Of a stretch of DNA of 64,000 nucleotides, positions 11,916 to 44,120 are shown piece after piece. The DNA lies in the NCBI GenBank assembly GCA_001804415.1, contig MHGA01000006.1:14308-78307 (forward strand), read 5' to 3'. The stretch comes from Candidatus Aquivivens invisus. Its GTDB lineage: Bacteria > Omnitrophota > Gorgyraeia > Aquiviventales > Aquiviventaceae. Position 1 is the stretch's first letter; each line of letters begins with the position of its first letter. Made by a program: the position numbers and the translations under genes. A model generated the notes under the pieces. The model was not told where the DNA came from and did not search any database. It saw nothing but the letters and a program-made list of their open reading frames with translations.

Positions 11916-12395
11916 ATGGATGCCCAAGCGAAGAAGATCGCGTTGAGGAAAATTCCGCACGGCGTCTATATCATCGGGGTGGCGCAGGACGGCCAGCTCA
12001 ACGCCTTCACCGGCACGTGGCTGACGCAGGTGTCCTTCACGCCTCCGTTGGTCGCGCTGGGGATCAGGAAGGACAGCCACTCCTTGTCCATGATCCAGCA
12101 CGCCAAGGTGTTCTCGGTGAACATCCTGGGCAAAGAGCAGAAGCCGCTCGCCGAGCATTTCGTCAAGCCCGCCACCGTCATCGGGGAGAAACTCAAGACC
12201 GTTGCGCACCGCGCCGGCAAGACCGGGGCTCCGCTCTTGGATGACGCGATCGCCTTCGTGGAGTGCGAGGTGCGGGAAATCGCCAATGAGCTCGGCGACC
12301 ATGCGGTGGTCATCGGCGAGGTGGTGGAGGCCGGCGTGCGCAACGACGTGCCGGCCTTGACGCTGATAGACACCGGCTGGCACTACGGTGGTTAA
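11916..12395 (+). CDS. Flavin reductase-like (FMN-binding split-barrel) protein
   Basis: 159 aa, typical flavin reductase domain (YIIGVAQDGQLNAFTGTWLTQVSFTPP). Confidence 0.7.
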   Translation: MDAQAKKIALRKIPHGVYIIGVAQDGQLNAFTGTWLTQVSFTPPLVALGIRKDSHSLSMIQHAKVFSVNILGKEQKPLAEHFVKPATVIGEKLKTVAHRAGKTGAPLLDDAIAFVECEVREIANELGDHAVVIGEVVEAGVRNDVPALTLIDTGWHYGG

Positions 12396-13929: not shown

Positions 13930-13969
13930 CCCCCACACCAATTGTCGCAGACAACAATTGGTGTGGGGG
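13930..13969. promoter_or_regulatory. Perfect 16-bp-arm palindrome (CCCCCACACCAATTGT-N7-ACAATTGGTGTGGGGG) immediately after the stop at 13929
   Basis: Read directly; no T-run on either side. Confidence 0.6.
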
Positions 13970-14015
13970 CTTGACCCTCTCGTTGCGGGGTGTCAGAATA
14001 GCCAGAGGAGGATCG

Positions 14016-14336
14016 GTGATTCGACGCTCGCGTCGTGTCGTCATCATGGGGCTCGCCGTCTGTTGGAGCCTGAGCGGTCCGGCACAACCGGTGTCGGCAG
14101 ATGCCCTTGGGGATCTTGTTGGAGGGCTTGGGCAGCTGCTCATCGGCGCGTTTGCCATTCCGGTTGAAGCCATCCAGGGGACGCTCAACGGGCCGCCGAT
14201 TCTTGGGACCATCGGCGGCATCCTCAGCGGGACGGTCCATACGGTCGGTTCAACACTGGGCGGGGTGCTGCAGATCGCCAAATCCGTCGTCCCCCTCGCC
14301 ACCTCCCTGGTGCCATTTCTTCCCTGGGTTCTCTAG
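14016..14336 (+). CDS. Small secreted Gly-rich protein, divergent member of the small secreted paralog family (see 37489, 47084, 56874)
   Basis: SD AGGAGG 4 nt before GTG; signal peptide; shares PxEAIQG...G...GG..H.V block with paralogs. Confidence 0.55.
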   Translation: MIRRSRRVVIMGLAVCWSLSGPAQPVSADALGDLVGGLGQLLIGAFAIPVEAIQGTLNGPPILGTIGGILSGTVHTVGSTLGGVLQIAKSVVPLATSLVPFLPWVL

Positions 14337-14343
14337 CCCTTCC

Positions 14344-15195
14344 GTGACCGTGCATCGCACCCGGCTGTCAACCTACGCCAACTTCATCAAACTTGAGCAC
14401 ACGATTCTTTCTCTGCCGCTCATCTATGCGGGAGCCGTCGTGGGTGCGGCAGGGTGGCCCTCGATCCGGCTGGCCGGCCTGATCCTGCTTGCGGCGATCG
14501 GAGGACGGGTGATGGCGATGGGATTGAACCGCCTCATCGACGCCGCCATCGATGCGCGCAACCCCCGCACGAAGGGCCGCGAGCTGCCAAGCGGCACGAT
14601 GCGACCGCTTGAGGCGTGGGGGATCGTCGGACTGGCCGGCCTGCTCTATGCAGGCAGTGCGGCGGCGGTTGCGCCGATCTGCCTGATCTGGTCGCCGCTG
14701 CCGGTTGCGCTGTTTGTCCTGTATCCGTATCTGAAGCGATTCACCGCGCTCTCACACGTTGGACTCGGTCTGGCTTGGTCGATGGGCCCGCTCGGTGGAT
14801 GGTTGGCGACTGCGCAGTCGTTGGCGCACCTTGATCAGATCATGTGGCTGTGGCTGTTCGCCGTCTTGTGGGTGGCGGGGTTCGACGTGATCTACGCCAC
14901 CCTGGATGAAGCGTTCGACCGGCAGGAAGGGTTGCATTCGCTGCCTGCGCGGATGGGAAAAGACCGCGCCCTGCGAGTTGCCGCGTTGTTGCACGCCGCC
15001 GCGTTCATGGCTCTGGCCATCTTACAGCGCGACGTCCTGCGCTCACCCGTTGGCTGGCCGTGGCTGCTCGCCATCGCCGCCATTCTCATTTGGGAGCACG
15101 CCATCGCTCCCCGCCGCCCAGAGTTCGCCTTCTTCTACTTAAATGCCGCTCTCGGCTTCCTTGTCTTCGGTCTGGTTGCATCCGGCTTGAGATAA
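14344..15195 (+). CDS. UbiA-family prenyltransferase, probable menaquinone (futalosine-route) prenyltransferase MqnP-like
   Basis: NRLIDAAIDARNPRTKGRELPSG UbiA motif, 8-9 TM; adjacent to UbiX/UbiD homologs. Confidence 0.75.
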   Translation: MTVHRTRLSTYANFIKLEHTILSLPLIYAGAVVGAAGWPSIRLAGLILLAAIGGRVMAMGLNRLIDAAIDARNPRTKGRELPSGTMRPLEAWGIVGLAGLLYAGSAAAVAPICLIWSPLPVALFVLYPYLKRFTALSHVGLGLAWSMGPLGGWLATAQSLAHLDQIMWLWLFAVLWVAGFDVIYATLDEAFDRQEGLHSLPARMGKDRALRVAALLHAAAFMALAILQRDVLRSPVGWPWLLAIAAILIWEHAIAPRRPEFAFFYLNAALGFLVFGLVASGLR

Positions 15196-15216
15196 CGGCG
15201 CTCCTTATCCAATCTA

Positions 15217-15245
15217 TTGATAATATACATTCTATATAGTATAAT
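15217..15245 (+). promoter_or_regulatory. Canonical sigma-70 promoter TTGATA-17nt-TATAAT upstream of phd/yefM antitoxin
   Basis: -35 TTGATA 15217-15222, 17-nt spacer, -10 TATAAT 15240-15245, SD GGGAGGGAGAGG before ATG 15285; AT-rich island. Confidence 0.7.
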
Positions 15246-15284
15246 CATATTAGTGGAATTGAGTTGGTAGCAGGGAGGGAGAGG

Positions 15285-15551
15285 ATGAAGGAGATCACAG
15301 CTCTCGAGCTTCGGAAGCGCTTTGGGGAAGTCATGGAAGATGTTCGTTATCGCAAGGAGCCGTATCTCGTAAAGCGGAACGGACGCCCCATGATCGTGCT
15401 GCTTGATATCGATGCGTATCAGGCCGATGAAAGTCGCCGAAAGGAAGACGTCTTCATTGAAGACTATACCGAGGAGCGTCTTCAGGAATTCTTAGAGGAA
15501 GACCGCCTGGATCCCGGCGTGCAGGCCCGTGTGAATCGGCGTCTGCGATAA
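15285..15551 (+). CDS. Phd/YefM-family antitoxin
   Basis: MKEITALELRKRFGEVMEDV...PYLVKRNGRPMIVLLDIDAYQ typical YefM/Phd N-domain. Confidence 0.8.
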   Translation: MKEITALELRKRFGEVMEDVRYRKEPYLVKRNGRPMIVLLDIDAYQADESRRKEDVFIEDYTEERLQEFLEEDRLDPGVQARVNRRLR

Positions 15552-15983
15552 ATGGTCCGGGTCTTCCTGGATGCGAACGTGTATTTCGCTGGTTGTTATT
15601 CTGCGAAGGGGGCCTCGGCGCTCCTGCTGAAGCTGGCGGTGCGCAAACGCCTCCAAGTGGTGGCATCTCGGCTAGTATTGCGGGAAGCCGAGCGCAACTT
15701 GCATGCGAAAGCCGATCGCAAGGCTCTGCGCGTGTTTCATCGGTTCTTAGAGACTGCCACCCCGCGCATACTTCGAACGCCATCCGCCAAAACGCTCGCT
15801 GCCTACGAGACGATTATTCATCCGAAAGACGTCCCAGTGCTGGCTGCGGCCGTTGAAGCAAAGGTTGACTATCTGGTGACGCTGGACCGCCGGCATTTCT
15901 TTGCCCCCCTCGTCGAGGCCCGAATTAAATCGCCGCGCATTCTGGCCCCCGGCGACTTCCTACAGGAATGGCTGTCGAGATGA
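15552..15983 (+). CDS. PIN-domain (VapC-like) toxin
   Basis: FLDANVY PIN signature, TAAATG junction with antitoxin. Confidence 0.75.
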   Translation: MVRVFLDANVYFAGCYSAKGASALLLKLAVRKRLQVVASRLVLREAERNLHAKADRKALRVFHRFLETATPRILRTPSAKTLAAYETIIHPKDVPVLAAAVEAKVDYLVTLDRRHFFAPLVEARIKSPRILAPGDFLQEWLSR

Positions 15984-16219
15984 AACGTACAAAACGCGAA
16001 GTGGCGGACATCATTGACTCATTTTTATCAGGCGAGGGAGAGGAGTGGGACTGGGATGATTTTACCAGCATTCCAATTCACGATCCCGAGTTAAACAGAA
16101 TTCGTCTGAGGTGCGTTCAACTCGACAAAGAATTTCCTCCAGAGAAACGTGGCGAGTATTGTAATGCTCATGGAATGGACGTGTTGCGGGATTATGTGAA
16201 GCGATTACGGACGAAATAG
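15979..16219 (+). CDS. Small acidic hypothetical protein in low-GC island (80 aa)
   Basis: ATGA overlap with vapC stop; markedly AT-rich codon usage. Confidence 0.4.
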
Positions 16220-16226
16220 AGATCTG

Positions 16227-16790
16227 ATGGAGAGAATGATGCGCATTGTAGTCGGGATGACGGGGGCGTCGGGGGCGGTCTTCGGGGTGGAGTTTCTGCG
16301 GCGATGTCAGGCGGAGAAATACCTGATTCTGACGAAGTGGGGGCGGTACGTGCTGAAAGAAGAAACCGGCCTGACCGAACACCATCTAGCCGAGCATGTC
16401 AAACGCAGCTTTTCAGACGACGATCTCTCCGCGCCGTTTTCCTCAGGGTCGACGCCGTTCGATGCGCTGGTGATCGTGCCCTGCTCCGCCTCGACGATGG
16501 CCAAGCTCGCTGTCGGGATTGCCGATACCCTGCTGACAAGGGCGGCGATGGTCGCTCTCAAAGAACGGCGAAAGCTGATCATCTGCCTTCGCGAGACGCC
16601 GTTGTCCACCATCCACTTGGAACAGGCGCACAAGCTCTCGCAGGCCGGCGCCATCGTGATGCCGATTTGCCCGCCGTTCTATCACCGCCCCCAGACGATC
16701 GACGAGATGGTGAGCCAGTTCACCGAGAAGGTCCTGAGTCTCCTCGGATTCGAAACCTCGCTTGCTTGGAAAGCCGAAGCCCTTGAGTAA
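16227..16790 (+). CDS. ubiX: Flavin prenyltransferase UbiX family (MqnL-like in futalosine route)
   Basis: Flavoprotein fold motifs GMTGASGAV, PCSASTMAKLAVGIADTLLTRAA. Confidence 0.85.
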   Translation: MERMMRIVVGMTGASGAVFGVEFLRRCQAEKYLILTKWGRYVLKEETGLTEHHLAEHVKRSFSDDDLSAPFSSGSTPFDALVIVPCSASTMAKLAVGIADTLLTRAAMVALKERRKLIICLRETPLSTIHLEQAHKLSQAGAIVMPICPPFYHRPQTIDEMVSQFTEKVLSLLGFETSLAWKAEALE

Positions 16791-18548
16791 ATGGCTGATT
16801 TGCAATCCTTCCTCTCCCTCTTAGAACGCGAGGACCAACTCGCCCGCATCCGGGTGGAGGTCGATCCGGAGCTCGAGATCACCGAGATCGCCACGCGCGT
16901 GGTCAAGGAACGGGGGCCGGCGCTGTTGTTCGAGCGGGTGAAAGGCTCGGCCATCCCTCTGGCGATTAACATCTTGGGGACTGAGCGGCGCATCGAGCTC
17001 GCGCTCGGTCGGCACCCGCAAGAGGTTGGGGCCTCGCTGAAGCGCTTGATGGAAGCCGCGATGCCGCCTCGGCCCAAGCGGTTGCTCGAGGAATGGCGCA
17101 CCGTTGGCCGGGTGCTGTCGATGCCGCCCAGGCGGGTGCGTCGCGCGGCGTGCCACGACGTGGAAGAACCGCCCGACCTGGGGAAGCTGCCCATCATGAA
17201 ATGCTGGCCGAACGACGCGGGGCGGTTCATCACCTGCGGGATGGTGCTGACGCATGATCCCAAGACGGAGGTCCGGAACCTTGGCATCTACCGGATGCAG
17301 GTGGTCGGAGGCGATCAGGTGCTCATGCACTGGCAGATCCAGAAGGGCGGAGGATTCCACTATTGGAAAGCCGAGCAGCAGGGCAAGGCGCTGGCGGTCT
17401 CGGTCATCATCGGCGCAGATCCTCTCCTTTATATCGCTTCGGTCGCTCCGCTGCCTGAAGGGATTGACGAGCTGGCGTTCGCCGGATTTCTGGGAGGCCG
17501 GCGCATCCCGCTGGTGCATGGGAAGGCCACACCGACCGTCGCTCCCGCCGAGGCGGAGATCGTGCTGGAAGGTGTGGTGCCGCCTGATGAGCGCCTGCCC
17601 GAAGGGCCGTTCGGGGACCATTTCGGCCACTACTCCCATCCCGCGCCGTTTCCCGTGATGTGGGTTCAGACCATGACGCGCCGCGCCAAGCCGATTTATC
17701 TCTCGGCGGTCGTGGGCAAACCCCCTCAAGAGGACCGGTATATCGGCGACGCGGTGCAGGAGATGCTGCTGCCGATGATCCGGTTGATCCATCCGGAGCT
17801 GAAGGACCTGTGGGCCTATTACGAGGCCGGGTTTCACAGCCTGGCGGTGGCGGCGGTTGAGGAGCGGTACGGCAAGGAAGGGATGAAGACCGCCCTGGGG
17901 CTGCTGGGAACCGGGCAGATGAGCCTCACCAAGTGCCTCATCCTGGTGGATCCGGACGTCAACGCGCGCGACGCCAACGAAGTGCTGCGCGCCGTGCGCG
18001 ATCATTTCGATCCGGCGGAGGACTTTCTCTTGCTCCCTGGTGTCCCTTTTGATACGCTAGATTTTACGAGCCTGACCCCCAATCTGGGCAGCAAGATGGT
18101 GCTCGATGCCACCCGCGACGGGAAGGCATCCCCTCCAGGGGTTCCTCCAGTTGATCTGGAGGCTGTCCGGTGTCTGCATCCACGGATCCAAGCTGCCCGC
18201 ATCATCGGGGGATGTCTGGTGGCGGTCCAGGTCGAGGGCGAAGGCCGCTCGGTGGTGGAGGCGCTCGTTCAGGCGGATGCGTTGCGCGCCGTCAAGCTGA
18301 TCGCCGCGGTCAGCGCCGACGTGGACCTGCGCGAGGGCGAAAGCCTGTTGTGGGGGATCTTCACGCGGTTTGATCCCGCCCGCGACGTCGTCTTCACCGA
18401 GGTGGAGCTCCACGGAGGCTGGCCCATCCACCGAGGCCGCCTCGGCATCGATGCCACCTTCAAGACCGGATACCCTGATCCGATCGTGATGGATCCGGCA
18501 GTCGTCACACGAGTCACCCAACGATGGCCTCACTACTTCAAGGCGTAG
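16791..18548 (+). CDS. ubiD: UbiD-family decarboxylase (MqnM-like in futalosine route)
   Basis: 585 aa, UbiD family conserved blocks; starts 1 nt after ubiX stop. Confidence 0.8.
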   Translation: MADLQSFLSLLEREDQLARIRVEVDPELEITEIATRVVKERGPALLFERVKGSAIPLAINILGTERRIELALGRHPQEVGASLKRLMEAAMPPRPKRLLEEWRTVGRVLSMPPRRVRRAACHDVEEPPDLGKLPIMKCWPNDAGRFITCGMVLTHDPKTEVRNLGIYRMQVVGGDQVLMHWQIQKGGGFHYWKAEQQGKALAVSVIIGADPLLYIASVAPLPEGIDELAFAGFLGGRRIPLVHGKATPTVAPAEAEIVLEGVVPPDERLPEGPFGDHFGHYSHPAPFPVMWVQTMTRRAKPIYLSAVVGKPPQEDRYIGDAVQEMLLPMIRLIHPELKDLWAYYEAGFHSLAVAAVEERYGKEGMKTALGLLGTGQMSLTKCLILVDPDVNARDANEVLRAVRDHFDPAEDFLLLPGVPFDTLDFTSLTPNLGSKMVLDATRDGKASPPGVPPVDLEAVRCLHPRIQAARIIGGCLVAVQVEGEGRSVVEALVQADALRAVKLIAAVSADVDLREGESLLWGIFTRFDPARDVVFTEVELHGGWPIHRGRLGIDATFKTGYPDPIVMDPAVVTRVTQRWPHYFKA

Positions 18549-18574
18549 CCGACCGCCTTCAGCGCCGCGCGCGG

Positions 18575-19702
18575 ATGTCGAGAGCAGAGGCGCTGAAGCT
18601 CTTTGAGGCACGCGATCTCATCGGCCTCGGGCAATTGGCGAACGAGGTCAAGCAAGCCACATGGGGCGATCGCGCCCACTTTGTGATCAACCGCCAGATC
18701 AACCCTACGAACGTCTGCGTCCTGTCCTGCCGGTTCTGCGACTTCGCGACCAAGCGGGGACGCCCTAACGCCTACGAGATGACGATCCAGGACGTCTTAG
18801 ATCGCCTCAGCCCGGAGCTGCGGGAAGTCCACATCGTGCAGGGGCTGCATCCGGACTGGACGTGGGATTTCTACCTGGAGATGCTCCGCGCGATCAAGAC
18901 GAGCTTCCCCCGGATGCAGATCAAAGCCTGGACGGCGGTTGAGATTGACTATTTCTCCAAGAAGTTTCGCCTCTCGGTCGAAGAGGTCCTGGTGCAGATG
19001 AAGGAGGCGGGGCTCTCCGCCTTGCCCGGCGGGGGCGCGGAGGTGTTTTCCGAACGGGTGCGCAAGGCGCTGTTTCCCTTTAAAATCGGCGCGCCGAGGT
19101 GGCTGGAGATTCACCGGATCGCGCATCAGCTGGGCATCCCGACCAACGCGACCTTGCTGTACGGCCACATCGAGACGCGCGAAGAACGCGTGGATCACCT
19201 CCTGAAGCTTCGCGAACTCCAGGATGACACCGGCGGCTTCATGAGCTTCATCCCGTTGGCGTATCAAGTCGGCAAGACGCGCGTGGTCGAGCGCCAGGCG
19301 TCGGCGATCGAGGACCTCAAGACGATGGCGATCTCCAGGCTGCTCCTGGACAACATCCCCCACATCAAAGCCTACTGGGTGACGATGGGTGAAGAGACGG
19401 CGTCGATCGCCCTGAACTTCGGGGCCGATGATCTCGACGGGACGATCGGGGAGGAGCGGATCATGCATGCCGCGGATGCCGCAAGCCCGATTCGGCAGAC
19501 CCGCGAGCGGCTGGTGGAACTCATCCGAGCCTCCGGATGCGTGCCGGTGGAACGCGATGCCCTCTATCACGAGGTCGCGGTGTGCGACCCTTCGACTCGC
19601 GCCACGGCCTCTGGCCGTGGGCTCGCTCAGGATTCCGCCCCACGGGCGCAGGAAGAGGTGCCACGGGCTCTGCCCGTGGGGCTCCACAATGGCCACCGGT
19701 AA
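18575..19702 (+). CDS. Radical SAM menaquinone biosynthesis enzyme, MqnC/MqnE family (paralog 1; alternative start 18524); about 45-aa C-terminal extension encoded by hairpin repeats
   Basis: NPTNVCVLSCRFCDFA cluster motif, CofG/CofH-like fold. Confidence 0.75.
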   Translation: MSRAEALKLFEARDLIGLGQLANEVKQATWGDRAHFVINRQINPTNVCVLSCRFCDFATKRGRPNAYEMTIQDVLDRLSPELREVHIVQGLHPDWTWDFYLEMLRAIKTSFPRMQIKAWTAVEIDYFSKKFRLSVEEVLVQMKEAGLSALPGGGAEVFSERVRKALFPFKIGAPRWLEIHRIAHQLGIPTNATLLYGHIETREERVDHLLKLRELQDDTGGFMSFIPLAYQVGKTRVVERQASAIEDLKTMAISRLLLDNIPHIKAYWVTMGEETASIALNFGADDLDGTIGEERIMHAADAASPIRQTRERLVELIRASGCVPVERDALYHEVAVCDPSTRATASGRGLAQDSAPRAQEEVPRALPVGLHNGHR

Positions 19703-19736
19703 AGTCAGAAGTCAAAAGTCAGAAGTCGGAAGTACA
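19702..19736. repeat. Tandem heptanucleotide repeat (AAGTCAG)x5 (imperfect) between mqnC/E paralog 1 and mqnA
   Basis: aagtcag aagtcaa aagtcag aagtcgg aagtaca, followed by CT-rich run. Confidence 0.9.
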
Positions 19737-19766
19737 CTTCCCTCTTCCCCCTTCGCTCTTCCCCCT

Positions 19767-20522
19767 TTGACGGTGGCCCGCATTCCGTATCTCAACTGCG
19801 CGCCGTTTTTTGCCGGCCTTCCGCTCAAGCCAGGATGGGAGGTGGTCGACGTTGCGCCCAGGCGTTTAGGCCAGATGGCTGAGGAGGGCAAGTTCTTGGC
19901 GGGCGTGATGTCGCTGGCGGATTACCTGCGGTTGCAGGATCGCTTCGAGCGGATCGGGCCGCTGGGGGTGGCGGTGCGGGGACGGGTGGGCAGCGCGCTG
20001 CTGTTTTCGCGCAAACCCCTTCGGCAGCTGGACGGCGCCTGCGTCGCGGTGACGGACGAAACGTCGACGACCGCCCTGTTGCTTCGCGTGATCCTGGAAC
20101 AGCGTTACCACCTGACGGTTCGACTCGCGCCGCACGCCCACCCGACCCAGCAGGATGCTGACGCGGTGCTGCTGATCGGCGATGAGGCCTTGCGGTTTGG
20201 CAGCGTCAACCGGCTCTATCCGTTTGAGATTGATGTCGCCTTTGAATGGTGGTTGTGGCAGCATCTGCCCTGCGTCTTCGCCGTGTGGGCGATCCGCGCG
20301 GACGCCGGCGCGAGCACCAAGCGGGAGGTGAGCGAAGCCCTCCAGCGCACCCTGGCGGTCAACCTGCGTCGCCTCGATGAGCTCGTCATCCAACCGGCTG
20401 CCTCCCTGCACGTTCCGGCCGAGGACCTCACGATGTATCTGAGCCGGTTCATCTATCGTCTCAGCGCCGAGGAGGAGCGCGCCATCCAGCGCTTCGCCCA
20501 ACTGTCCCAATCCATGGCATGA
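19767..20522 (+). CDS. mqnA: Chorismate dehydratase MqnA (start uncertain: TTG 19767/GTG 19773, or ATG 19689 if heptamer tract is translated)
   Basis: RIPYLNCAPF MqnA signature, PF02621-type fold. Confidence 0.75.
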   Translation: MTVARIPYLNCAPFFAGLPLKPGWEVVDVAPRRLGQMAEEGKFLAGVMSLADYLRLQDRFERIGPLGVAVRGRVGSALLFSRKPLRQLDGACVAVTDETSTTALLLRVILEQRYHLTVRLAPHAHPTQQDADAVLLIGDEALRFGSVNRLYPFEIDVAFEWWLWQHLPCVFAVWAIRADAGASTKREVSEALQRTLAVNLRRLDELVIQPAASLHVPAEDLTMYLSRFIYRLSAEEERAIQRFAQLSQSMA

Positions 20523-21604
20523 GCCCCGTCTGCTGCGACTCGCTCGAGGAGAAGGTGTTCGCCGGGGAGCGGCTGACGCGCGAGGAAGGCCGCTCCCTCT
20601 TGCAAGACGCCTCCCTCCTTGAGCTAGGTCAGCTCGCCAACTCCGTGCGCTCCCGCCACAATCCCGACCCCGCCGTGACGTTTGTGATCGACTCGAATCC
20701 GAACTACACGAATGTGTGCATCACCGACTGCGTCTTCTGCGCGTTCTACCGCAAGCCCGGCTCGAAGGACGGCTATGTCCTGACGGTGGACCAAGTCATG
20801 GAGAAGGTCCGTCGGGCCGTTGAGTTGGGGGCGACGACCGTCTTGCTGCAAGGAGGGCACAACCCGCAGATTCCCCTCAGCTATTACCTGGCGTTGGTCT
20901 CCGAAACCCGCCGCCGGTTTCCGCAGGTGACCCCGCATTTCTTCACCGCCTCGGAAGTGACGACGATGGCGCAGGTCTCCGGGCTGCCGATCGGCGATGT
21001 GCTCAGACAGCTCAAAGACGCGGGGCAGTCCACCTTGCCGGGCGGGGGCGCGGAGATCCTCTCCGATCGCATTCGGCGGAGGCTCAGTCCGAAGAAAGGC
21101 GGAGCCGAGGCGTGGTTATCGGTCCATCGCGAAGCGCACCGCCTCGGCTTCAAATCGACCGCGACCATGATGTTCGGTCACCTCGAGGACGACGACGATC
21201 TCCTCCAACACCTTGAGCACATCCGCGGGCTGCAAGATGAGACGAGAGGGTTCACCGCTTTTATCCCGTGGAGCTTCAAGCCCGGCAACACCCCGCTCGA
21301 GAAACCGATCCCGCATCACGCCGACCCAACCCGTTACCTTCGGATCATCGCGCTCTCGCGACTCTACCTCGACAACGTCCCGCACATCCAGGCTTCCTGG
21401 TTCTCTGAAGGCAAGAAGACCGGCCAGGTCGCTCTGCACTTCGGGGCCGACGATTTCGGAGGGACCTTGTTCGAGGAGAACGTGCACGCCGCCACCAACT
21501 TTATCAACACAACGAGCGTTGAGGACCTCGTCACCGTGATCCGTGAAGCGGGATTTCGGCCGGTTCAACGCACCACGTTGTACGAACGCATCAAGGAGTG
21601 GTAA
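20519..21604 (+). CDS. Radical SAM menaquinone biosynthesis enzyme, MqnC/MqnE family (paralog 2)
   Basis: NYTNVCITDCVFCAF motif; ATGA overlap with mqnA. Confidence 0.75.
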   Translation: MSPVCCDSLEEKVFAGERLTREEGRSLLQDASLLELGQLANSVRSRHNPDPAVTFVIDSNPNYTNVCITDCVFCAFYRKPGSKDGYVLTVDQVMEKVRRAVELGATTVLLQGGHNPQIPLSYYLALVSETRRRFPQVTPHFFTASEVTTMAQVSGLPIGDVLRQLKDAGQSTLPGGGAEILSDRIRRRLSPKKGGAEAWLSVHREAHRLGFKSTATMMFGHLEDDDDLLQHLEHIRGLQDETRGFTAFIPWSFKPGNTPLEKPIPHHADPTRYLRIIALSRLYLDNVPHIQASWFSEGKKTGQVALHFGADDFGGTLFEENVHAATNFINTTSVEDLVTVIREAGFRPVQRTTLYERIKEW

Positions 21605-21606
21605 GG

Positions 21607-22077
21607 ATGGGACAGGAGATTCCGCTTTCCAACGGTGTGGGCGAGGTCATGGCGCCGCAGACGCTCGTGACGGCCTTCGTCATCGCGCCGGACGGCAGCA
21701 TTCGGTTGGATGCCGGCGCGCTGCATGGACGCAGCCAGATCGAGGGCCAGGTGACGATGGTCTCGCGGCAGGAGCTGGCGGGTGAGTCCCAGCCGGTGCT
21801 CGTCGTGTGGGTGGCCCTGGAGCTTGACGGGGCCAATCGGCCGGTGCGGTACAAAGGCTTGTCGGTGTGCCAGATCCTCGTGAACTCGAAGCAGCAGATG
21901 GGCTACAAGAGCCTCTCCGAGCACGTCAACCGCATGGGCGAAGCGATTCGAGGAGACATCAACATTGCGCGTCTCAGCCCCGAGCAGCGGCGCGCGGTCA
22001 AGCAACAACTCGTGGCCTTGGGCGCTTCGTTCTGGGACGCGTCCGACCCGGTGCTCAAGCAGGCCCTTGAGTCGTGA
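21607..22077 (+). CDS. Hypothetical protein (156 aa), translationally coupled to downstream BioB-like gene
   Basis: SD AAGGAG upstream; ATGA overlap at 22074. Confidence 0.45.
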   Translation: MGQEIPLSNGVGEVMAPQTLVTAFVIAPDGSIRLDAGALHGRSQIEGQVTMVSRQELAGESQPVLVVWVALELDGANRPVRYKGLSVCQILVNSKQQMGYKSLSEHVNRMGEAIRGDINIARLSPEQRRAVKQQLVALGASFWDASDPVLKQALES

Positions 22078-23048
22078 TGGAGTGGTCCTCCATCATCTCG
22101 CGCTCGCTGACGGACGAGGCGATTGCCCGCGAGGAAGCCCTCGACATCCTGCGGCTGCCTGACGAGCAGATCGTGGAGGTCTTACGCGCCGCCTTCGAGG
22201 TGCGCCAAGCCACCTACGGCAAGCGGGTGAAAATCTGCCTGCTGCAAAACGCCCGCAGCGGGCTGTGCCCCGAGGATTGCCACTACTGTTCCCAGTCCGC
22301 CGTATCCACCGCGCCGATTGCGAGGTACCTGCTGCTTCCCCTTGACCAGCTGATGGAGGGGGCTCGTCGCGCGCGCGAGGCCGGGGCAAGACGCTACTGC
22401 ATGGTGACCAGCGGACGGGGCCCCAGCGAAGAAGACATCGCGCACTTCTGTGAAGCCGCCCGACTGATCAAATCCCAGTATCCCCTGGAGATCTGCGTGT
22501 CGCTGGGCATCCTGTCGGGGACGCAGGCCCACCAACTCAAAGAGGCCGGTGTGGGGTGGGTGAACCACAACCTGAACACCAGCGCTCGGCATCATCCCGC
22601 CATCTGTACGACCCACACGTATCAGGATCGCCTCCAAACCGTCCGGAATGTCCAGCAGGCCGGGCTGATGACGTGCAGCGGAGGCATCGTGGGCATGGGC
22701 GAAACGGACGAGGATCTTCTCGAACTCGCCCTGGCCCTGCGGGAGTTGCGCGTCAACTCGCTGCCGGTCAATTTCCTCAATCCGATCCCCGGCACGCCGC
22801 TGGAGGCGTGCCGCGCGCTGACCCCCATGCGGTGTCTGAAAATCCTCTGCCTGTTCCGGTTTCTGAATCCGAAAAGCGATCTGCGCGCCGCGGGAGGCCG
22901 CGAGGTCAATCTGCGCTCCCTCCAGCCGCTGGCGCTGTATCCCGCCAATTCCATCTTCGTGGACGGTTACCTGACCACGCCGGGCCAGGCCGCGCAGGCC
23001 GCCCGGCAGATGGTCAGCGACATGGGGTTTGAGCTGGAGGAGTCATGA
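22074..23048 (+). CDS. bioB: Biotin synthase-like radical SAM protein
   Basis: CPEDCHYCSQS plus BioB-type 2Fe-2S cysteines (RYCMVTSGRG, EICVSLGIL, MTCSGGIVG). Confidence 0.6.
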   Translation: MMEWSSIISRSLTDEAIAREEALDILRLPDEQIVEVLRAAFEVRQATYGKRVKICLLQNARSGLCPEDCHYCSQSAVSTAPIARYLLLPLDQLMEGARRAREAGARRYCMVTSGRGPSEEDIAHFCEAARLIKSQYPLEICVSLGILSGTQAHQLKEAGVGWVNHNLNTSARHHPAICTTHTYQDRLQTVRNVQQAGLMTCSGGIVGMGETDEDLLELALALRELRVNSLPVNFLNPIPGTPLEACRALTPMRCLKILCLFRFLNPKSDLRAAGGREVNLRSLQPLALYPANSIFVDGYLTTPGQAAQAARQMVSDMGFELEES

Positions 23049-23181
23049 TCCCCCCACCTCCTGAGGGCTGCCAATGGCAGCCCATGCAACGCGAGACAGC
23101 GCGCGAGGGGATGGCGAAATTTGCAGAGACAGAGCATGGTTGCATTGCCACGCCATTGGTGTGGCATCAGGAGGTGGGGGG

Positions 23182-23721
23182 ATGAAGCGAACCTGGATCC
23201 TGACGGCGATCGGCAGGGATCGGCCCGGCATCGTGGCGCATGTGACCAAGGTCTTGTACGCGCTCGGCGGCAATCTCGAAGACTCCGCGATGACGCGGCT
23301 GTGCGGCGAATTTGCGATCATGCTGGTCTTCTCCGCGCCGGGTCTGGTGACGGCGAAGCGGCTGGAGAGGGCCTTTCGACCGGTCGCCTCCCGACTAGGG
23401 CTGGCGACTCATCTCAAGCCGCTGGCGGCAACCGCGCAGCGTTCGACGACGCGGCCCCGCGTCTCTCTCATCTCCGTCTACGGGGCTGACCACCCGGGCA
23501 TTGTGTATCGGGTTGCCGAGTTGCTCGCCCGCTCCAAGATCAACATCACCGACCTATCGACCCATCGAACCACGGGCAACCGTCCGCTGTACCATCTCCT
23601 CCTTGAAGTCGAGCTGCCAAACCGACTCGACCCCGCACGGCTCGAACGCCGCCTGAAGACGCTGGGCAGACGACTTGGCGTCACGGTGAGCCTCCGAGCG
23701 GCTGAGACGACAGTCCTCTAG
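23182..23721 (+). CDS. Tandem ACT-domain protein (GcvR/UPF0237-like)
   Basis: Two ACT repeats (GRDRPGIVAHVT..., GADHPGIVYRVAELL...). Confidence 0.6.
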   Translation: MKRTWILTAIGRDRPGIVAHVTKVLYALGGNLEDSAMTRLCGEFAIMLVFSAPGLVTAKRLERAFRPVASRLGLATHLKPLAATAQRSTTRPRVSLISVYGADHPGIVYRVAELLARSKINITDLSTHRTTGNRPLYHLLLEVELPNRLDPARLERRLKTLGRRLGVTVSLRAAETTVL

Positions 23722-23732
23722 CTGCCGCGCGC

Positions 23733-24236
23733 ATGGCCGTGCTGCCTGTCCGACGGTTTCCCGATCCGCTCCTCAAGACCATCACTCGCCCTGTCGATCC
23801 AAACGCCCCGCCTGTCCGGCGGCTCATCGCGGATCTTATCGACACCATGCGGCATCATCCCCGTTGTGTCGGCTTGGCCGCGCCGCAGGTGGGGCAGCTG
23901 CTGCGCGTGGCGGTGGTGGATGTGACCGGCCACCCGAAAGCCGAGCAGTCGCACGGCCTGCTGGTGTTGGTGAATCCCCGCCTCACGGCCCGAGACGGTC
24001 TGCGCATGCAACGGGAGGGATGCCTGTCGGTGCCTGATCTCACCGGGAACGTCAGCCGGGCCGTCCGGGTGCACGTCGAGGCGTGGGATGGCTCAGGCGC
24101 CCGGTGGACCAGGCGGCTGGAGGGATTTGAGGCGGTGGCGGTTCAGCACGAGCTCGATCACCTGGACGGCACGCTCTTCCTGGATCGCGTGGTGAATGCG
24201 CGCACCGACGTGTTCAGGCGACAACGATACGCCTAA
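23733..24236 (+). CDS. def: Peptide deformylase
   Basis: GLAAPQVG, EGCLSVP, HELDHLDG motifs. Confidence 0.9.
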   Translation: MAVLPVRRFPDPLLKTITRPVDPNAPPVRRLIADLIDTMRHHPRCVGLAAPQVGQLLRVAVVDVTGHPKAEQSHGLLVLVNPRLTARDGLRMQREGCLSVPDLTGNVSRAVRVHVEAWDGSGARWTRRLEGFEAVAVQHELDHLDGTLFLDRVVNARTDVFRRQRYA

Positions 24237-25087
24237 CGATCCGCGGTCCGCGTCGGCGGCTGGATCAACGCGAGACGGGGCACGCGCGGGATCAGGCCGC
24301 GCGCATGCGCCTCGCGGTAGAGCAGGCGCAGGGCCTGCCGGCAGGGACGGGAAAAACTCAGGGTGTCTTCGTTCACATACATGCTGACGAACTGTCTGGC
24401 GCGCACCGGATCAATGCCTCGCCCGTAGCGAAGCGACCAGGCCATGGCTTCATCCTGATGCGTCATCGCATAGACGATGCTGTCCCGCAGCAGCTGCGCA
24501 AATTTCGAAGCGAGGGGTTTGCCCAACGAGCGTTTGATGACGTTCAACCCCAGCGGCAGCGGCAATTTTTTCTGCTGCTGCCACCACATCCCTAAATCCA
24601 GGATCGGCAGCAAGCCTTGATCGCGGTAGGTCAGTTGCCGCTCGTGGATGAGCAGCCCCGCCTCCACTTCGCCGTTGAGCACCGCGTCGGGAATCCGCTC
24701 GAAGGCCATCTCGATCGGCACAATCCCCTGGACGGCAAGCGAGAGGAGGAGGGAGGCCGTGGTGTGGAGACCGGGAACCGCCACGCGGCACTTGGCGAGG
24801 TCAGACGGCGCGTAGCCCTTCATCGCCACCACGACCGGCCCGTAGCTTCGCCCCACGCTTGACCCAACGCCCAACATCCAGTAGTCATGGGCGATCAGGG
24901 GGTAGCTCGCCGCCGAGACGGCCGTGACGTCCAGCTCGGCGTGGAGGGCTCGTCGGTTCAGGGTTTGGATGTCTTCGATTGTCTGTCGGACACGGAGTCC
25001 CTCCATCGCGACCTTTCCTTCCGCGATGGCGTAGAACATGAACGCATCGTCCATGTCCGGCGTATGCCCAACAGTGAGCGTCCTCAT
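24233..25087 (-). CDS. MqnA/MqnD-family protein, probable 1,4-dihydroxy-6-naphthoate synthase MqnD (start 25087 or 25096)
   Basis: GHTPDMDDAFMFYA aligns with MqnD GxSPCPNDTFxFYA; N-terminal 55 aa of the longer ORF rejected. Confidence 0.6.
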   Translation of the reverse strand: MRTLTVGHTPDMDDAFMFYAIAEGKVAMEGLRVRQTIEDIQTLNRRALHAELDVTAVSAASYPLIAHDYWMLGVGSSVGRSYGPVVVAMKGYAPSDLAKCRVAVPGLHTTASLLLSLAVQGIVPIEMAFERIPDAVLNGEVEAGLLIHERQLTYRDQGLLPILDLGMWWQQQKKLPLPLGLNVIKRSLGKPLASKFAQLLRDSIVYAMTHQDEAMAWSLRYGRGIDPVRARQFVSMYVNEDTLSFSRPCRQALRLLYREAHARGLIPRVPRLALIQPPTRTADR

Positions 25088-25797
25088 CAGCTCCATTCCT
25101 CGTAGTGGATCTGCCCAGGCTGCACCCCGTAGGCGCGCAGGTCGTGGGCCACCGCCTTCACCACCTCGAGCCAGCCGCAGATGTAAATTTCTTTGTTGGT
25201 GAAGTCGGTGATATACTTGCGGAACGCGTCTTGCACGTGTCCGACCTCGCCCTGCCATTCTTTCGGCCGGCTGACGATCGGAACATACTGGAAGTTATGG
25301 CGCAGGGAGGCCAGCGTGCGGAACTCAGCCTCGAACAAGGTGCCGTGCTCGTACCGGCAGCCGAAGAACAGCCGCACCGGTTGGGTCGCATGCAGGTGAA
25401 AGAGATGATGAATCATGCTCCGCAGCGGGGCGACACCGGTTCCAGTGGCCATGAAGATCGGCTCATACGTGAGGGGTTGCTTGAGGACGAAGCGCCCGTG
25501 CGGGCCGGAGAGGGTGACGGGGGAGCCGGTTTTTAATTGCCAGAAGAAGGTCGAAGCCGCCCCGCCGTCCACATGCTGGAGGCAAATCTCCACCACGCCC
25601 TCCTCATGCGGGGGCGAGGCGATGGAGTAGGCTCGCTTGACGACCGCCCCGTTCTTCGGCACATGGACAATCACGAACTGCCCGGCTTCGAAGGGCAGGT
25701 GGGTGGGTTCGGCCAGCCGAAGCCGGAAACAGCGGACGTTATACGACAAGATGTCAATCCGATCGACGACCGTGCGATACGGTTGCGCTGCCATCAT
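25087..25797 (-). CDS. Ferredoxin-NADP reductase-like FAD/NAD(P)-binding oxidoreductase, translationally coupled (TGATG) to the mqnD-like gene
   Basis: RAYSIAS FAD motif, GTGVAP NAD motif. Confidence 0.65.
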   Translation of the reverse strand: MMAAQPYRTVVDRIDILSYNVRCFRLRLAEPTHLPFEAGQFVIVHVPKNGAVVKRAYSIASPPHEEGVVEICLQHVDGGAASTFFWQLKTGSPVTLSGPHGRFVLKQPLTYEPIFMATGTGVAPLRSMIHHLFHLHATQPVRLFFGCRYEHGTLFEAEFRTLASLRHNFQYVPIVSRPKEWQGEVGHVQDAFRKYITDFTNKEIYICGWLEVVKAVAHDLRAYGVQPGQIHYEEWS

Positions 25798-33154: not shown

Positions 33155-33232
33155 CCGTTGTTTCCTCGGATGGCGGCCCGACCACCGACAACTCCTCTAA
33201 GAAGGAGCATGCGCTGCCTTCTTAGACCCTTC
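33134..33232 (-). terminator. Copy 1 of a repeated two-hairpin module ending (minus orientation) in GC hairpin plus U-run; downstream of ArsB/NhaD-family gene
   Basis: Hairpins ctctaagaagg/ccttcttagag and ccgccatccg/cggatggcgg, conserved linker GGTGGTCGGGCC. Confidence 0.6.
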
Positions 33233-34842: not shown

Positions 34843-34925
34843 CGCAAAATAAAAACCGCCATCTAGCAAACGCTAGGTGGCGGCCCGACCACTAGAAACT
34901 CCTCCGGGCGATATACCCGGACCCT
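34843..34925 (-). terminator. Copy 2 of the repeated two-hairpin/terminator module (downstream of mscS)
   Basis: GGAAGCGCAAAATAAAAACCGCCATC identical to copy 3; first hairpin replaced by ccggg/cccgg stem. Confidence 0.6.
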
Positions 34926-44023: not shown

Positions 44024-44120
44024 AGCGCAAAATAAAAACCGCCATCCAGCAATGCTAGATGGCGGCCCGACCACCGAACCTCCTCTAAGAAGGGGCACAA
44101 GACATCCTTCTTAGACCCTT
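44024..44120 (-). terminator. Copy 3 of the repeated two-hairpin/terminator module (downstream of APC permease)
   Basis: Minus orientation: GGGUCUAAGAAGG..CCUUCUUAGAGG-AGGUUCGGUGGUCGGGCC-GCCAUCUAGCAUUGCUGGAUGGCGG-UUUUUAUUUU. Confidence 0.65.

What the first reader, a model, noticed from the sequence alone, without database searches (positions are those of the whole stretch)
14344..25096. Near-complete futalosine-route menaquinone supercluster
Within 11 kb lie a UbiA prenyltransferase (MqnP-like), UbiX (MqnL-like), UbiD (MqnM-like), two MqnC/MqnE-family radical-SAM paralogs flanking MqnA (one overlapping it by ATGA), and an MqnD-like gene. The MqnD-like gene is translationally coupled to an FNR-like reductase. 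The early (MqnA/E/C/D) and late (prenylation/decarboxylation) steps are normally scattered. Only MqnB/MTAN and the C-methyltransferase are missing. The co-located BioB-like radical SAM with its coupled 156-aa protein, and the FNR-like reductase, are candidate accessory components.
Basis: partly seen in the sequence, partly recalled or inferred. Interest (0 to 1): 0.55.

Follow-up and report, generated by a model that had tools for sequence, protein, structure and literature searches.

The report
Ordinary conserved futalosine menaquinone operon
An uncultured Omnitrophota bacterium keeps seven genes for making the respiratory lipid menaquinone by the futalosine route in one 11-kb block, but the same block occurs in several other bacterial phyla, so it is a normal conserved operon and not an oddity.

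Summary
The genes are there as described. HMMs and solved-structure matches resolve them as MqnP-like UbiA, UbiX (MqnM), UbiD (MqnL), MqnE, MqnA, MqnC and, convergent, MqnD. The paralogs are not CofG/CofH.

The claim that the layout is unusual fails. I fetched 80 loci around MqnA relatives from species-level genomes. MqnE-MqnA-MqnC is present wherever the flank is long enough (74/74 and 60/60). UbiA-UbiX-UbiD lies directly upstream in 33/59. All seven genes occur in 21/41 loci, across Omnitrophota, Ignavibacteriota and Bacteroidota.

The "BioB-like" gene is a canonical biotin synthase. Its coupled 156-aa protein is a YwhD-family protein that travels with BioB, not with mqn genes. BioB, ACT, deformylase, the FNR-like gene and the upstream HemQ-like/DLH/flavin-reductase genes are neighbours only in Omnitrophota.

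The FNR-like gene is a Fre-type NAD(P)H-flavin reductase homolog. It forms a stable two-gene unit with mqnD in every Omnitrophota locus examined and is the only plausible lineage-specific accessory, but this is untested.

No nucleosidase (MqnB/MTAN) and no MenG/UbiE methyltransferase lies in the 64-kb window.

Verdict: a new member of a known kind, of low interest.

The parts
14344..15195 (+). mqnP-like UbiA-family polyprenyltransferase (283 aa, GTG start)
   Evidence: PF01040 at 6e-43 and TIGR01475 ubiA_other 239.5 against 180.8. The MqnP exception models score 213, 174 and 154 bits, all below their cut-offs. In 33/59 related loci it lies immediately upstream of UbiX-UbiD-MqnE.
15285..16219 (+). 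Insertion that is not part of the pathway: PhdYeFM antitoxin (15285-15551), PIN toxin (15552-15983) and a 79-aa ORF (15980-16219), preceded by an AT-rich promoter-like spacer
   Evidence: Pfam PF02604 and PF13470. GC is 52.6% against 64% in the flanks. The insertion is absent from L012, L015 and L016, where UbiA and UbiX are 7-19 nt apart.
16239..16790 (+). mqnM (UbiX-family flavin prenyltransferase, makes prFMN)
   Evidence: TIGR00421 192.8 against 108.9; PF02441. Naming follows PMC4746308.
16791..18548 (+). mqnL (UbiD-family decarboxylase, 585 aa with a ~150-aa C-terminal extension)
   Evidence: TIGR03701 mena_SCO4490 514.8 against 495.9; UbiD_N, UbiD and UbiD_C domains. The start codon directly abuts the UbiX stop.
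18524..19702 (+). mqnE (aminofutalosine synthase, radical SAM)
   Evidence: TIGR03700 471.8 against 434.55. CofH scores 310 against 374. The motif CVLSCRFC is present.
19689..20522 (+). mqnA (chorismate dehydratase)
   Evidence: PF02621 at 8e-48. Best PDB hits are SCO4506 / chorismate dehydratase (1e-23) and D. radiodurans MqnA (1.7e-14). The LNC motif aligns.
20519..21604 (+). mqnC (cyclic dehypoxanthinyl futalosine synthase, radical SAM)
   Evidence: TIGR03699 467.5 against 428.1. The start overlaps the MqnA stop as ATGA. The motif CITDCVFC is present.
21607..23048 (+). Intervening genes that are not part of the pathway: YwhD-family protein (21607-22077) translationally coupled to the canonical biotin synthase BioB (22077-23048)
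   Evidence: PF08741 at 2.6e-25; TIGR00433 391.3 against 225. YwhD follows BioB, not MqnC, in L091. Neither occurs in the mqn loci of other phyla.
23182..24236 (+). Intervening genes that are not part of the pathway: tandem-ACT protein (23182-23721) and peptide deformylase (23733-24236)
   Evidence: Pfam ACT_6 and PF01327; NCBIfam. They are neighbours only in Omnitrophota.
24233..25087 (-). mqnD (1,4-dihydroxy-6-naphthoate synthase); an alternative in-frame ATG lies at 25096
   Evidence: PF02621 at 1e-66. PDB hits are AF1704 at 4e-80 and T. thermophilus MqnD at 3e-56.
25087..25797 (-). Fre-type FAD/NAD(P)H oxidoreductase (FNR-like, no Fe-S domain), upstream of mqnD and overlapping it by 1 nt. 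A candidate accessory specific to this lineage.
   Evidence: PF00970 plus PF00175. 28% identical to E. coli Fre, E 1e-19. PDB neighbours are MmoC, NqrF, BenC and Fre. It is paired with MqnD in L012, L016, L018-L020 and L090-L092 and is absent from the other phyla.

Best explanation
The block is the standard futalosine (aminofutalosine) menaquinone biosynthesis operon of an uncultured Candidatus Omnitrophota bacterium. It keeps a gene order shared with Ignavibacteriota, Bacteroidota and other lineages.

Pathway steps, assigned by homology (established biochemistry; inference for this organism):
1. MqnA dehydrates chorismate to 3-[(1-carboxyvinyl)oxy]benzoate.
2. The radical-SAM enzyme MqnE adds the adenosyl moiety of SAM to give aminofutalosine.
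3. A nucleosidase encoded elsewhere removes the base: either MTAN directly, or a deaminase plus MqnB.
4. The radical-SAM enzyme MqnC cyclises dehypoxanthinyl futalosine.
5. MqnD releases 1,4-dihydroxy-6-naphthoate.
6. The UbiA-type MqnP prenylates it.
7. The UbiD-type MqnL, loaded with prFMN made by the UbiX-type MqnM, removes the 6-carboxyl.
8. A MenG/UbiE-type methyltransferase encoded elsewhere finishes menaquinone.

Tight spacing and overlapping stop/start codons (UbiX|UbiD, UbiD/MqnE, MqnE/MqnA, MqnA/MqnC) indicate one translationally coupled transcription unit on the + strand. MqnD is expressed from the convergent strand as the second gene of a Fre-like-reductase/mqnD bicistron.

BioB, YwhD, ACT and deformylase are housekeeping passengers of lineage-specific synteny. 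The toxin-antitoxin cassette between mqnP and mqnM is a recent insertion.
For: Family assignments pass curated equivalog cut-offs for MqnE, MqnC and MqnL, and subfamily cut-offs for UbiA and UbiX. MqnA and MqnD are separated by their closest solved structures. The junction sequences show the couplings.

Identical proteins and gene order occur in GenBank MAG GCA_001805925.1 and in many metagenome contigs. The closest named homologs are Candidatus Omnitrophica.

Conservation across the 80 loci: the MqnE-A-C triad in 74/74 and 60/60 loci, UbiA-X-D upstream in 33/59, and all seven genes in 21/41. The non-mqn neighbours are confined to Omnitrophota.

Literature: MqnP, MqnL and MqnM were predicted from co-occurrence with mqn genes (PMC4746308). 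The futalosine pathway was found in 4,157 of 26,264 genomes across 279 orders. It is almost mutually exclusive with the Men pathway, with only 20 genomes holding both (PMC13386864). nuo genes for complex I lie 6-12 kb upstream, which fits a respiratory quinone.
Against: - No enzyme activity or quinone analysis exists for this organism.
- The nucleosidase and the C-methyltransferase are not in the 64-kb window. Completeness of the pathway, and whether the product is menaquinone or demethylmenaquinone, cannot be shown here.
- The UbiA protein fails the three narrow MqnP 'exception' models: 213 against 430, 174 against 420 and 154 against 375. Its substrate is inferred from conserved context only.
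- The 80 comparison loci were retrieved with peptide patterns taken from Omnitrophota MqnA. They are therefore biased towards that MqnA subfamily, and the frequencies are not genome-wide rates.
Confidence: 0.85

Rival explanations
1. The cluster carries accessory redox enzymes dedicated to the pathway and specific to this lineage. One is the Fre-type reductase co-translated with MqnD. Another may be the PF01613 flavin reductase (11916-12395) upstream of mqnP. Possible roles are supplying FMNH2 to UbiX/MqnM for prFMN synthesis, keeping 1,4-dihydroxy-6-naphthoate in the quinol state for prenylation, or feeding electrons to the MqnE/MqnC [4Fe-4S] clusters.
For: The FNR-like to MqnD order holds in all nine Omnitrophota loci examined: the window, L012, L016, L018-L020 and L090-L092. 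Start/stop codons overlap in the window, L090 and L092. The pair stays intact when other neighbours change, as in L091. The protein has the size and architecture of E. coli Fre (28% identity, E 1e-19). In E. coli K-12, fre lies 45 nt downstream of ubiD on the same strand. A Flavin_Reduct gene lies upstream of UbiA in six Omnitrophota loci.
Against: Neither reductase occurs in the mqn loci of any other phylum sampled. Clearly unrelated housekeeping genes (BioB, deformylase, HhH-GPD glycosylase) are conserved in position to the same degree, so adjacency here may only reflect slow genome rearrangement. The MqnD reaction needs no redox partner (established biochemistry). The protein scores below the Fre equivalog cut-off, 104.5 against 230.
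Confidence: 0.15
2. The UbiA/UbiX/UbiD trio serves a benzoquinone pathway (of the ubiquinone, plastoquinone or methyl-plastoquinone type) and merely sits beside the mqn genes.
For: UbiA, UbiX and UbiD homologs perform prenylation and decarboxylation in the UQ, PQ and mPQ pathways (PMC11874023). The UbiA protein fails the specific MqnP models.
Against: UbiD passes the menaquinone-specific equivalog TIGR03701 and fails the UbiD equivalog PRK10922, 370 against 788. UbiA scores only 108.5 against 275 on proteobacterial UbiA. The UbiD stop overlaps the MqnE start. The trio is glued to mqnE in 33 loci from several phyla. No UbiC, hydroxylase or UbiE/MpqE is present; MpqE scores 21.8 against 335.
Confidence: 0.04
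3. The BioB-like radical SAM enzyme and its coupled YwhD protein are additional steps or maturation factors of menaquinone synthesis.
For: They lie between MqnC and MqnD, and the YwhD start is 2 nt after the MqnC stop.
Against: BioB scores 391 against the 225 cut-off of the BioB equivalog. By comparison with E. coli BioB from memory, it keeps the three auxiliary-cluster Cys residues and the GGRE arginine. YwhD is missing in L012, L013, L018-L020 and L090. It stays with BioB, not MqnC, in L091. Neither gene occurs in the mqn loci of other phyla. Firmicute YwhD genes are not near bioB or mqn genes.
Confidence: 0.03
4. The two radical-SAM paralogs are CofG/CofH (F420 chromophore synthesis) rather than Mqn enzymes.
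For: They share the CofH_C domain, and the CofH models give E-values of about 1e-93.
Against: Both fall below the CofH cut-off (310 and 313.5 against 374.1) and far below CofG. Each passes a different Mqn equivalog. They flank MqnA in all 60-74 informative loci.
Confidence: 0.01

Closest known systems
mqn gene clusters of Ignavibacteriota and Bacteroidota (FCB group) MAGs, e.g. L027, L030, L041, L077
   Same: They share the order and orientation UbiA-UbiX-UbiD-MqnE-MqnA-MqnC, followed by a convergent MqnD. Protein identities to the window are 35-67%.
   Different: In those loci MqnE and MqnA are fused into one ORF of about 620 aa. Many carry extra genes: a PF10137 TIR-like protein between MqnA and MqnC, and an Amidohydro_2 or ABC-membrane protein before MqnD. 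They lack BioB, YwhD, ACT, deformylase and the Fre-like reductase.
Streptomyces coelicolor futalosine genes (SCO4490 UbiD-like, SCO4491 MqnP, SCO4492 UbiX-like, SCO4494 MqnE; SCO4506 MqnA; SCO4550 MqnC; SCO4326/4327 MqnD/B; SCO4556 methyltransferase)
   Same: The enzyme families are the same. Late-step genes are already linked to the early gene mqnE within five locus tags. The NCBIfam models hit here are named after these genes (gene list in PMC3937554).
   Different: In Streptomyces MqnA, MqnC and MqnD/B are dispersed. Here they are contiguous. Streptomyces uses a deaminase plus MqnB, and neither is visible here.
Chlamydia trachomatis CT426-CT427-CT428 operon
   Same: The MqnC paralog (now MqnE) lies next to MqnA in one operon that links first and last pathway steps (PMC3937554).
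   Different: The Chlamydia operon includes the methyltransferase and lacks the prenyltransferase, the decarboxylase pair and MqnC. The window shows the reverse.
E. coli ubiD-fre gene pair
   Same: A Fre-type NAD(P)H-flavin reductase without an Fe-S domain lies next to quinone-pathway genes that depend on prFMN. It is 28% identical to the window's reductase.
   Different: In E. coli fre follows ubiD. Here the reductase precedes mqnD on the opposite strand, 6.5 kb from the UbiD homolog. No functional link is proven in either case.

Membership tests
Futalosine pathway: MqnA chorismate dehydratase | PF02621 fold, with closest similarity to characterised chorismate dehydratases rather than to MqnD | tested here: met
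   PF02621 163.5 bits. PDB hits: SCO4506/7AHR at 1e-23 and D. radiodurans MqnA at 1.7e-14, against MqnD TTHA1568 at 7e-8. No NCBIfam model hit.
Futalosine pathway: MqnE aminofutalosine synthase | Passes the TIGR03700 equivalog cut-off; radical-SAM CxxxCxxC motif | tested here: met
   471.8 against 434.55; MqnC model 359.8 against 428.1. The motif is at residue 65.
Futalosine pathway: MqnC | Passes the TIGR03699 equivalog cut-off; radical-SAM CxxxCxxC motif | tested here: met
   467.5 against 428.1; MqnE model 354.1 against 434.55. The motif is at residue 67.
Futalosine pathway: MqnD | PF02621 fold, closest to the characterised MqnD of T. thermophilus | tested here: met
   PF02621 225.5 bits. 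PDB hits are only AF1704 at 4e-80 and TTHA1568 at 3e-56.
Futalosine pathway: MqnB or MTAN nucleosidase | A PNP_UDP_1-family nucleosidase gene | tested here: not met
   No PF01048 appears in any called gene across the window or up to 10 kb beyond it. The rest of the genome could not be searched with these tools.
Futalosine pathway: MqnP prenyltransferase | UbiA-family protein of the MqnP clade | tested here: inconclusive
   Passes TIGR01475 ubiA_other (239.5 against 180.8). Fails the lineage-specific MqnP models NF041586, NF041584 and NF041585 (213, 174 and 154 against 430, 420 and 375). Its position upstream of UbiX-UbiD-MqnE is conserved in 33/59 loci.
Futalosine pathway: MqnL (UbiD-type decarboxylase) | Passes the TIGR03701 equivalog cut-off | tested here: met
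   514.8 against 495.9. E. coli-type UbiD PRK10922 scores 370 against 788.
Futalosine pathway: MqnM (UbiX-type flavin prenyltransferase) | UbiX-family protein; no Mqn-specific model is available | tested here: met
   TIGR00421 192.8 against 108.9 and NF004685 190 against 188. The assignment to the Mqn pathway rests on context.
Futalosine pathway: MenG/UbiE/MqnG C-methyltransferase | A TIGR01934 / PF01209 methyltransferase | tested here: not met
   The only SAM methyltransferase nearby (36204-36911, - strand) scores 28.8 against 158.35. No PF01209 occurs in the window.
CofG/CofH (F420 FO synthase) | Passes TIGR03551 or TIGR03550 | tested here: not met
   CofH scores 310.1 and 313.5 against 374.1. 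CofG scores 33 and 48 against 213.
Biotin synthase BioB | Passes the TIGR00433 equivalog; Radical_SAM plus BATS domains | tested here: met
   391.3 against 225; PF04055 plus PF06968.
NAD(P)H-flavin reductase Fre | Passes the PRK08051 equivalog | tested here: not met
   104.5 against 230. 28% identity to E. coli Fre, with the same two-domain architecture. It resembles Fre in form but is not shown to be an ortholog.
Classical Men pathway (MenFDHCEB) in the same genome | Presence of men genes | not testable with these tools
   The full MAG cannot be scanned here. Published base rate: only 20 of 13,096 menaquinone-pathway genomes carry both routes (PMC13386864).

The most novel reading that the evidence does not exclude
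Omnitrophota have recruited a Fre-type NAD(P)H-flavin reductase, always co-expressed with mqnD, as a dedicated redox helper of the futalosine pathway. A second PF01613 flavin reductase just upstream of mqnP may serve the same purpose. One possible role is delivering FMNH2 to the UbiX-type MqnM for prFMN synthesis. Another is keeping 1,4-dihydroxy-6-naphthoate reduced for prenylation. This would parallel the unexplained ubiD-fre adjacency in E. coli.
Probability: 0.15. Interest if true: 0.4.

Novelty: new member of a known kind. Interest (0 to 1): 0.15.

Why it matters
It matters little beyond annotation. The locus shows that this Omnitrophota lineage makes a naphthoquinone by the futalosine route. 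It also gives a clean example of the compact mqnP-M-L-E-A-C/D layout, which helps when propagating MqnP, MqnL and MqnM annotations.

The comparative set shows that the textbook picture of scattered mqn genes, based on Streptomyces, Thermus and Helicobacter, does not hold for Omnitrophota and FCB-group bacteria.

Two leads are worth a short follow-up. One is the Omnitrophota-specific pairing of the Fre-like reductase with mqnD. The other, outside this window, is a TIR-like protein conserved inside the FCB-group clusters, which could be a non-orthologous futalosine/aminofutalosine nucleosidase.

Tried and rejected
1. CofG/CofH identity of the radical-SAM paralogs: rejected by the HMM cut-offs.
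2. The SAM methyltransferase at 36204-36911 as the missing MenG: rejected, 28.8 against 158 bits.
3. Search for MqnB/MTAN or UbiE anywhere in the window, using the Pfam lists of all called genes: none found.
4. YwhD as a general partner of BioB or of the mqn genes: rejected. It is variable within Omnitrophota and is unlinked to bioB in Paenibacillus. No functional literature exists.
5. Nitrospirota methyl-plastoquinone pathway (PMC11874023) as an alternative use of UbiA/X/D. I considered it because a chlorite-dismutase-family gene lies upstream. Rejected: the organism is Omnitrophota, the gene is HemQ-like, UbiD is the menaquinone type, and MpqE is absent.
6. Relaxed tblastn (E 1e-2) for the FNR-like, Flavin_Reduct, DLH, HemQ-like, p106, BioB, ACT and PDF proteins in the mqn loci of other phyla: nothing found.
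7. Homologs in the window of the extra genes of the FCB-group clusters (TIR-like, Amidohydro_2, ABC_membrane_3): none, E > 0.04.
8. Literature searches for an explicit description of this operon layout, or of futalosine genes in Omnitrophota: none found.
9. The PDB sequence search with the TIR-like protein gave only noise.
10. Rfam found no riboswitch and ARAGORN no tRNA inside the cluster.

Full report
**Observation**

The + strand between 14.3 and 24.2 kb carries a tight array of ORFs, and the - strand carries a convergent pair at 24.2-25.8 kb. Curated profile HMMs give clear assignments.

- 14344-15195 is a UbiA-family prenyltransferase: TIGR01475 'ubiA_other' 239.5 bits against a cut-off of 180.8.
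- 16239-16790 is UbiX: TIGR00421 192.8 against 108.9.
- 16791-18548 is a UbiD-family decarboxylase that passes the menaquinone-specific equivalog TIGR03701 'mena_SCO4490' (514.8 against 495.9).
- 18524-19702 is MqnE: TIGR03700 471.8 against 434.55.
- 20519-21604 is MqnC: TIGR03699 467.5 against 428.1.

Each radical-SAM paralog passes one Mqn equivalog only.

The two PF02621 proteins have no NCBIfam model, but solved structures separate them. The 19689-20522 protein is closest to S. coelicolor chorismate dehydratase SCO4506 (E 1e-23) and to D. radiodurans MqnA (alignment). The 24233-25087 (-) protein hits only AF1704 (4e-80) and Thermus thermophilus MqnD (3e-56).

The junction sequences show several couplings:

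- The UbiX stop directly abuts the UbiD start.
- UbiD overlaps MqnE, and MqnE overlaps MqnA.
- MqnA and MqnC overlap as ATGA.
- The FNR-like gene and MqnD overlap as TGATG.

**Corrections to the description**

- Ravcheev and Thiele named the UbiD homolog MqnL and the UbiX homolog MqnM (PMC4746308).
- UbiA is separated from UbiX by 1.04 kb of lower-GC DNA (52.6% against 64%). This stretch encodes a PhdYeFM antitoxin, a PIN toxin and a 79-aa ORF behind an AT-rich spacer. In the relatives L012, L015 and L016 the two genes are 7-19 nt apart, so this is a recent insertion.
- The 'BioB-like' enzyme is a canonical biotin synthase: TIGR00433 391 against 225, with Radical_SAM and BATS domains.
- Its coupled 156-aa partner belongs to the uncharacterised YwhD family (PF08741, 2.6e-25).
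- A tandem-ACT protein and peptide deformylase lie between BioB and MqnD.

**Source**

Identical proteins and gene order occur on GenBank contig MHHE01000042.1 (GCA_001805925.1, 96.4 kb) and on dozens of groundwater and soil metagenome contigs. The closest named homologs of MqnA, the reductase and YwhD are all 'Candidatus Omnitrophica bacterium'.

The wider window carries nuoJKLMN, ThyX, a HemQ-like protein, transporters and cell-wall enzymes. This is ordinary chromosomal context.

**Is the layout unusual?**

I aligned Omnitrophota MqnA sequences and used the alignment to fetch 80 loci around MqnA relatives from species-representative genomes. I then mapped all window proteins onto these loci by tblastn, resolving paralogs by best score.

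- Where the flank is long enough, MqnE lies directly upstream of MqnA in 74/74 loci, and MqnC lies downstream in 60/60.
- UbiA-UbiX-UbiD lies directly upstream of MqnE in 33/59 loci.
- MqnD lies within 10 kb in 34/47 loci.
- All seven genes are present in 21/41 loci: Omnitrophota 2/2, Ignavibacteriota 9/13, Bacteroidota 9/12, and one Chlorobi-labelled MAG.
- Dehalococcoidia carry MqnE-A-C(-D) without the late genes.

The sample is biased towards the MqnA subfamily that shares the two search peptides, so these are not genome-wide frequencies. Even so, the 'supercluster' is clearly a widespread, conserved operon.

Partial linkage of early and late genes also exists in the model organisms:

- S. 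coelicolor has SCO4490, 4491, 4492 and 4494. The NCBIfam models hit here are named after them, and the gene list is given in PMC3937554.
- Chlamydia has CT426-CT427-CT428.

I found no paper that describes this exact layout or futalosine genes in Omnitrophota. That reflects a lack of attention, not biological novelty.

**Missing steps**

None of the Pfam lists for the called genes of the window and its flanks contains a PNP_UDP_1 nucleosidase or a UbiE-type methyltransferase. The only SAM methyltransferase (36204-36911, - strand) scores 28.8 against the 158 cut-off of TIGR01934.

They must be encoded elsewhere. MTAN is a housekeeping enzyme in most bacteria (my own knowledge). The whole MAG could not be searched here.

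On the men-gene test, a survey of 26,264 genomes found both menaquinone routes in only 20 of 13,096 menaquinone-pathway genomes (PMC13386864). A co-resident classical pathway is therefore unlikely a priori.

**Candidate accessory genes**

A relaxed tblastn search (E 1e-2) finds the following proteins only in the Omnitrophota loci, and never in the mqn loci of other phyla:

- HemQ-like protein, DLH and Flavin_Reduct
- the 106-aa protein
- YwhD, BioB and ACT
- deformylase, the FNR-like protein and HhH-GPD

They are therefore lineage-specific synteny, not conserved cluster members.

YwhD is missing in six of the eleven informative Omnitrophota loci. In L091 it stays overlapped with BioB while a toxin-antitoxin insertion separates it from MqnC. 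In Paenibacillus it lies next to a PBP gene and is not near bioB. BioB and YwhD are thus not mqn accessories.

The FNR-like protein is more consistent.

- It is a 236-aa FAD_binding_6/NAD_binding_1 protein without an Fe-S domain.
- It is 28% identical to E. coli Fre (E 1e-19).
- Its closest solved relatives are the reductase domains of MmoC, NqrF and BenC, and Fre.
- It scores below the Fre equivalog cut-off, 104.5 against 230.
- It precedes mqnD in all nine Omnitrophota loci examined.
- Its codons overlap mqnD in three of these loci, and the pair survives rearrangement of the downstream neighbours.
- E. coli offers a parallel: fre lies 45 nt downstream of ubiD.

A role in supplying reduced flavin to the UbiX/UbiD system, or in keeping the naphthoquinol reduced, is conceivable. 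However, MqnD chemistry needs no reductant. The pairing is also no better conserved than that of clearly unrelated housekeeping neighbours. I put this reading at about 15%.

**Mechanism**

The most likely mechanism is inferred from homology to characterised enzymes:

1. MqnA converts chorismate to 3-[(1-carboxyvinyl)oxy]benzoate.
2. MqnE, using SAM, converts that to aminofutalosine.
3. MTAN, or a deaminase plus MqnB, encoded elsewhere, gives dehypoxanthinyl futalosine.
4. MqnC cyclises it to cyclic DHFL.
5. MqnD releases 1,4-dihydroxy-6-naphthoate.
6. MqnP prenylates it.
7. MqnL, with prFMN made by MqnM, decarboxylates it.
8. A methyltransferase encoded elsewhere gives menaquinone.

The product then serves the complex I encoded upstream. 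Family membership, gene order, coupling and conservation are shown here. Substrates, the final product and the operon boundaries are inferred.

**Verdict**

The finding is real but ordinary. It is a new member of a known kind, namely the compact futalosine operon shared by Omnitrophota and FCB-group bacteria. The claim of unusual organisation and the proposed BioB/YwhD accessories are not supported. Interest is about 0.15. The residual novelty lies in the Omnitrophota-specific pairing of the Fre-like reductase with mqnD.

Noticed in passing
window 15196-16238: A PhdYeFM/PIN toxin-antitoxin pair and a 79-aa ORF are inserted between mqnP and mqnM, inside an otherwise contiguous biosynthetic operon. 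GC is 52.6% against 64% in the flanks, and an AT-rich promoter-like spacer precedes the pair. Relatives L012, L015 and L016 lack the insertion. L091 has a different antitoxin insertion after MqnC.
   Followed up: partly
L045 8903-10768; L048 8903-10777; L030 8912-10789; L034 8873-10780: In Ignavibacteriota, Bacteroidota and Acidobacteriota loci MqnE and MqnA are fused into a single ORF of about 620-645 aa. In the window they are separate genes that overlap by 14 nt.
   Followed up: partly
L048 10777-11598 and 27 other loci (e.g. L034 10781-11614, L045 10790-11578): A protein of about 270 aa with a C-terminal PF10137 (CAP12/Pycsar TIR-like) domain (E 2e-8) sits between MqnA and MqnC in 28 of the 80 loci. 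TIR-like folds hydrolyse N-glycosidic bonds, so it could be a non-orthologous futalosine/aminofutalosine nucleosidase that fills the MqnB gap. No homolog occurs in the window, no literature was found, and the PDB sequence search was uninformative.
   Followed up: partly
L048 12699-13619 (-) and 11 other loci; L045 12791-13657 (-) and 5 other loci: An Amidohydro_2 (PF04909) protein lies between MqnC and MqnD in 12 FCB-group loci, and an ABC_membrane_3 protein does so in 6. These are further lineage-specific members of the mqn clusters, of unknown role.
   Followed up: no
window 21607-23048; L010, L016, L091, L092: A YwhD-family protein (PF08741, function unknown) is translationally coupled to the canonical BioB in several Omnitrophota. 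In Paenibacillus the YwhD gene lies next to a PBP gene instead. This may hint at a lineage-specific BioB partner.
   Followed up: partly
window 33168-33229 (-), 34875-34924 (-), 44057-44118 (-): There are three nhaA-I (Na+/Li+ riboswitch) RNA matches above the gathering score within 11 kb. They lie upstream of a 72-aa ORF plus two Band_7 genes, an ArsB/CitMHS transporter, and a histidine kinase / sigma-54 response regulator pair.
   Followed up: no
window 59714-61015 (-): A 433-aa protein combines an HTTM domain (vitamin K-dependent gamma-carboxylase-like) with a DCC1-like thiol-disulfide oxidoreductase domain, in a genome that makes a naphthoquinone.
   Followed up: no
window 12388-14336: A 513-aa polytopic membrane protein with no Pfam or NCBIfam hit overlaps the Flavin_Reduct stop. 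It is followed by a perfect inverted repeat of about 17 bp (13928-13967). It is absent from the equivalent position in relatives L012-L016 and L024. The next gene, a 106-aa secreted-looking protein directly upstream of UbiA, is weakly conserved in Omnitrophota (34-49% identity).
   Followed up: partly
window 8784-10403: The ThyX (PF02511) ORF is 539 aa, roughly twice the usual length. This suggests a tandem-duplicated or fused flavin-dependent thymidylate synthase.
   Followed up: no
window 16791-18548: The MqnL/UbiD homolog is 585 aa, whereas the TIGR03701 model ends at residue 435. The C-terminal extension of about 150 aa (a second partial UbiD_C hit) is conserved in length in the FCB-group homologs.
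   Followed up: no
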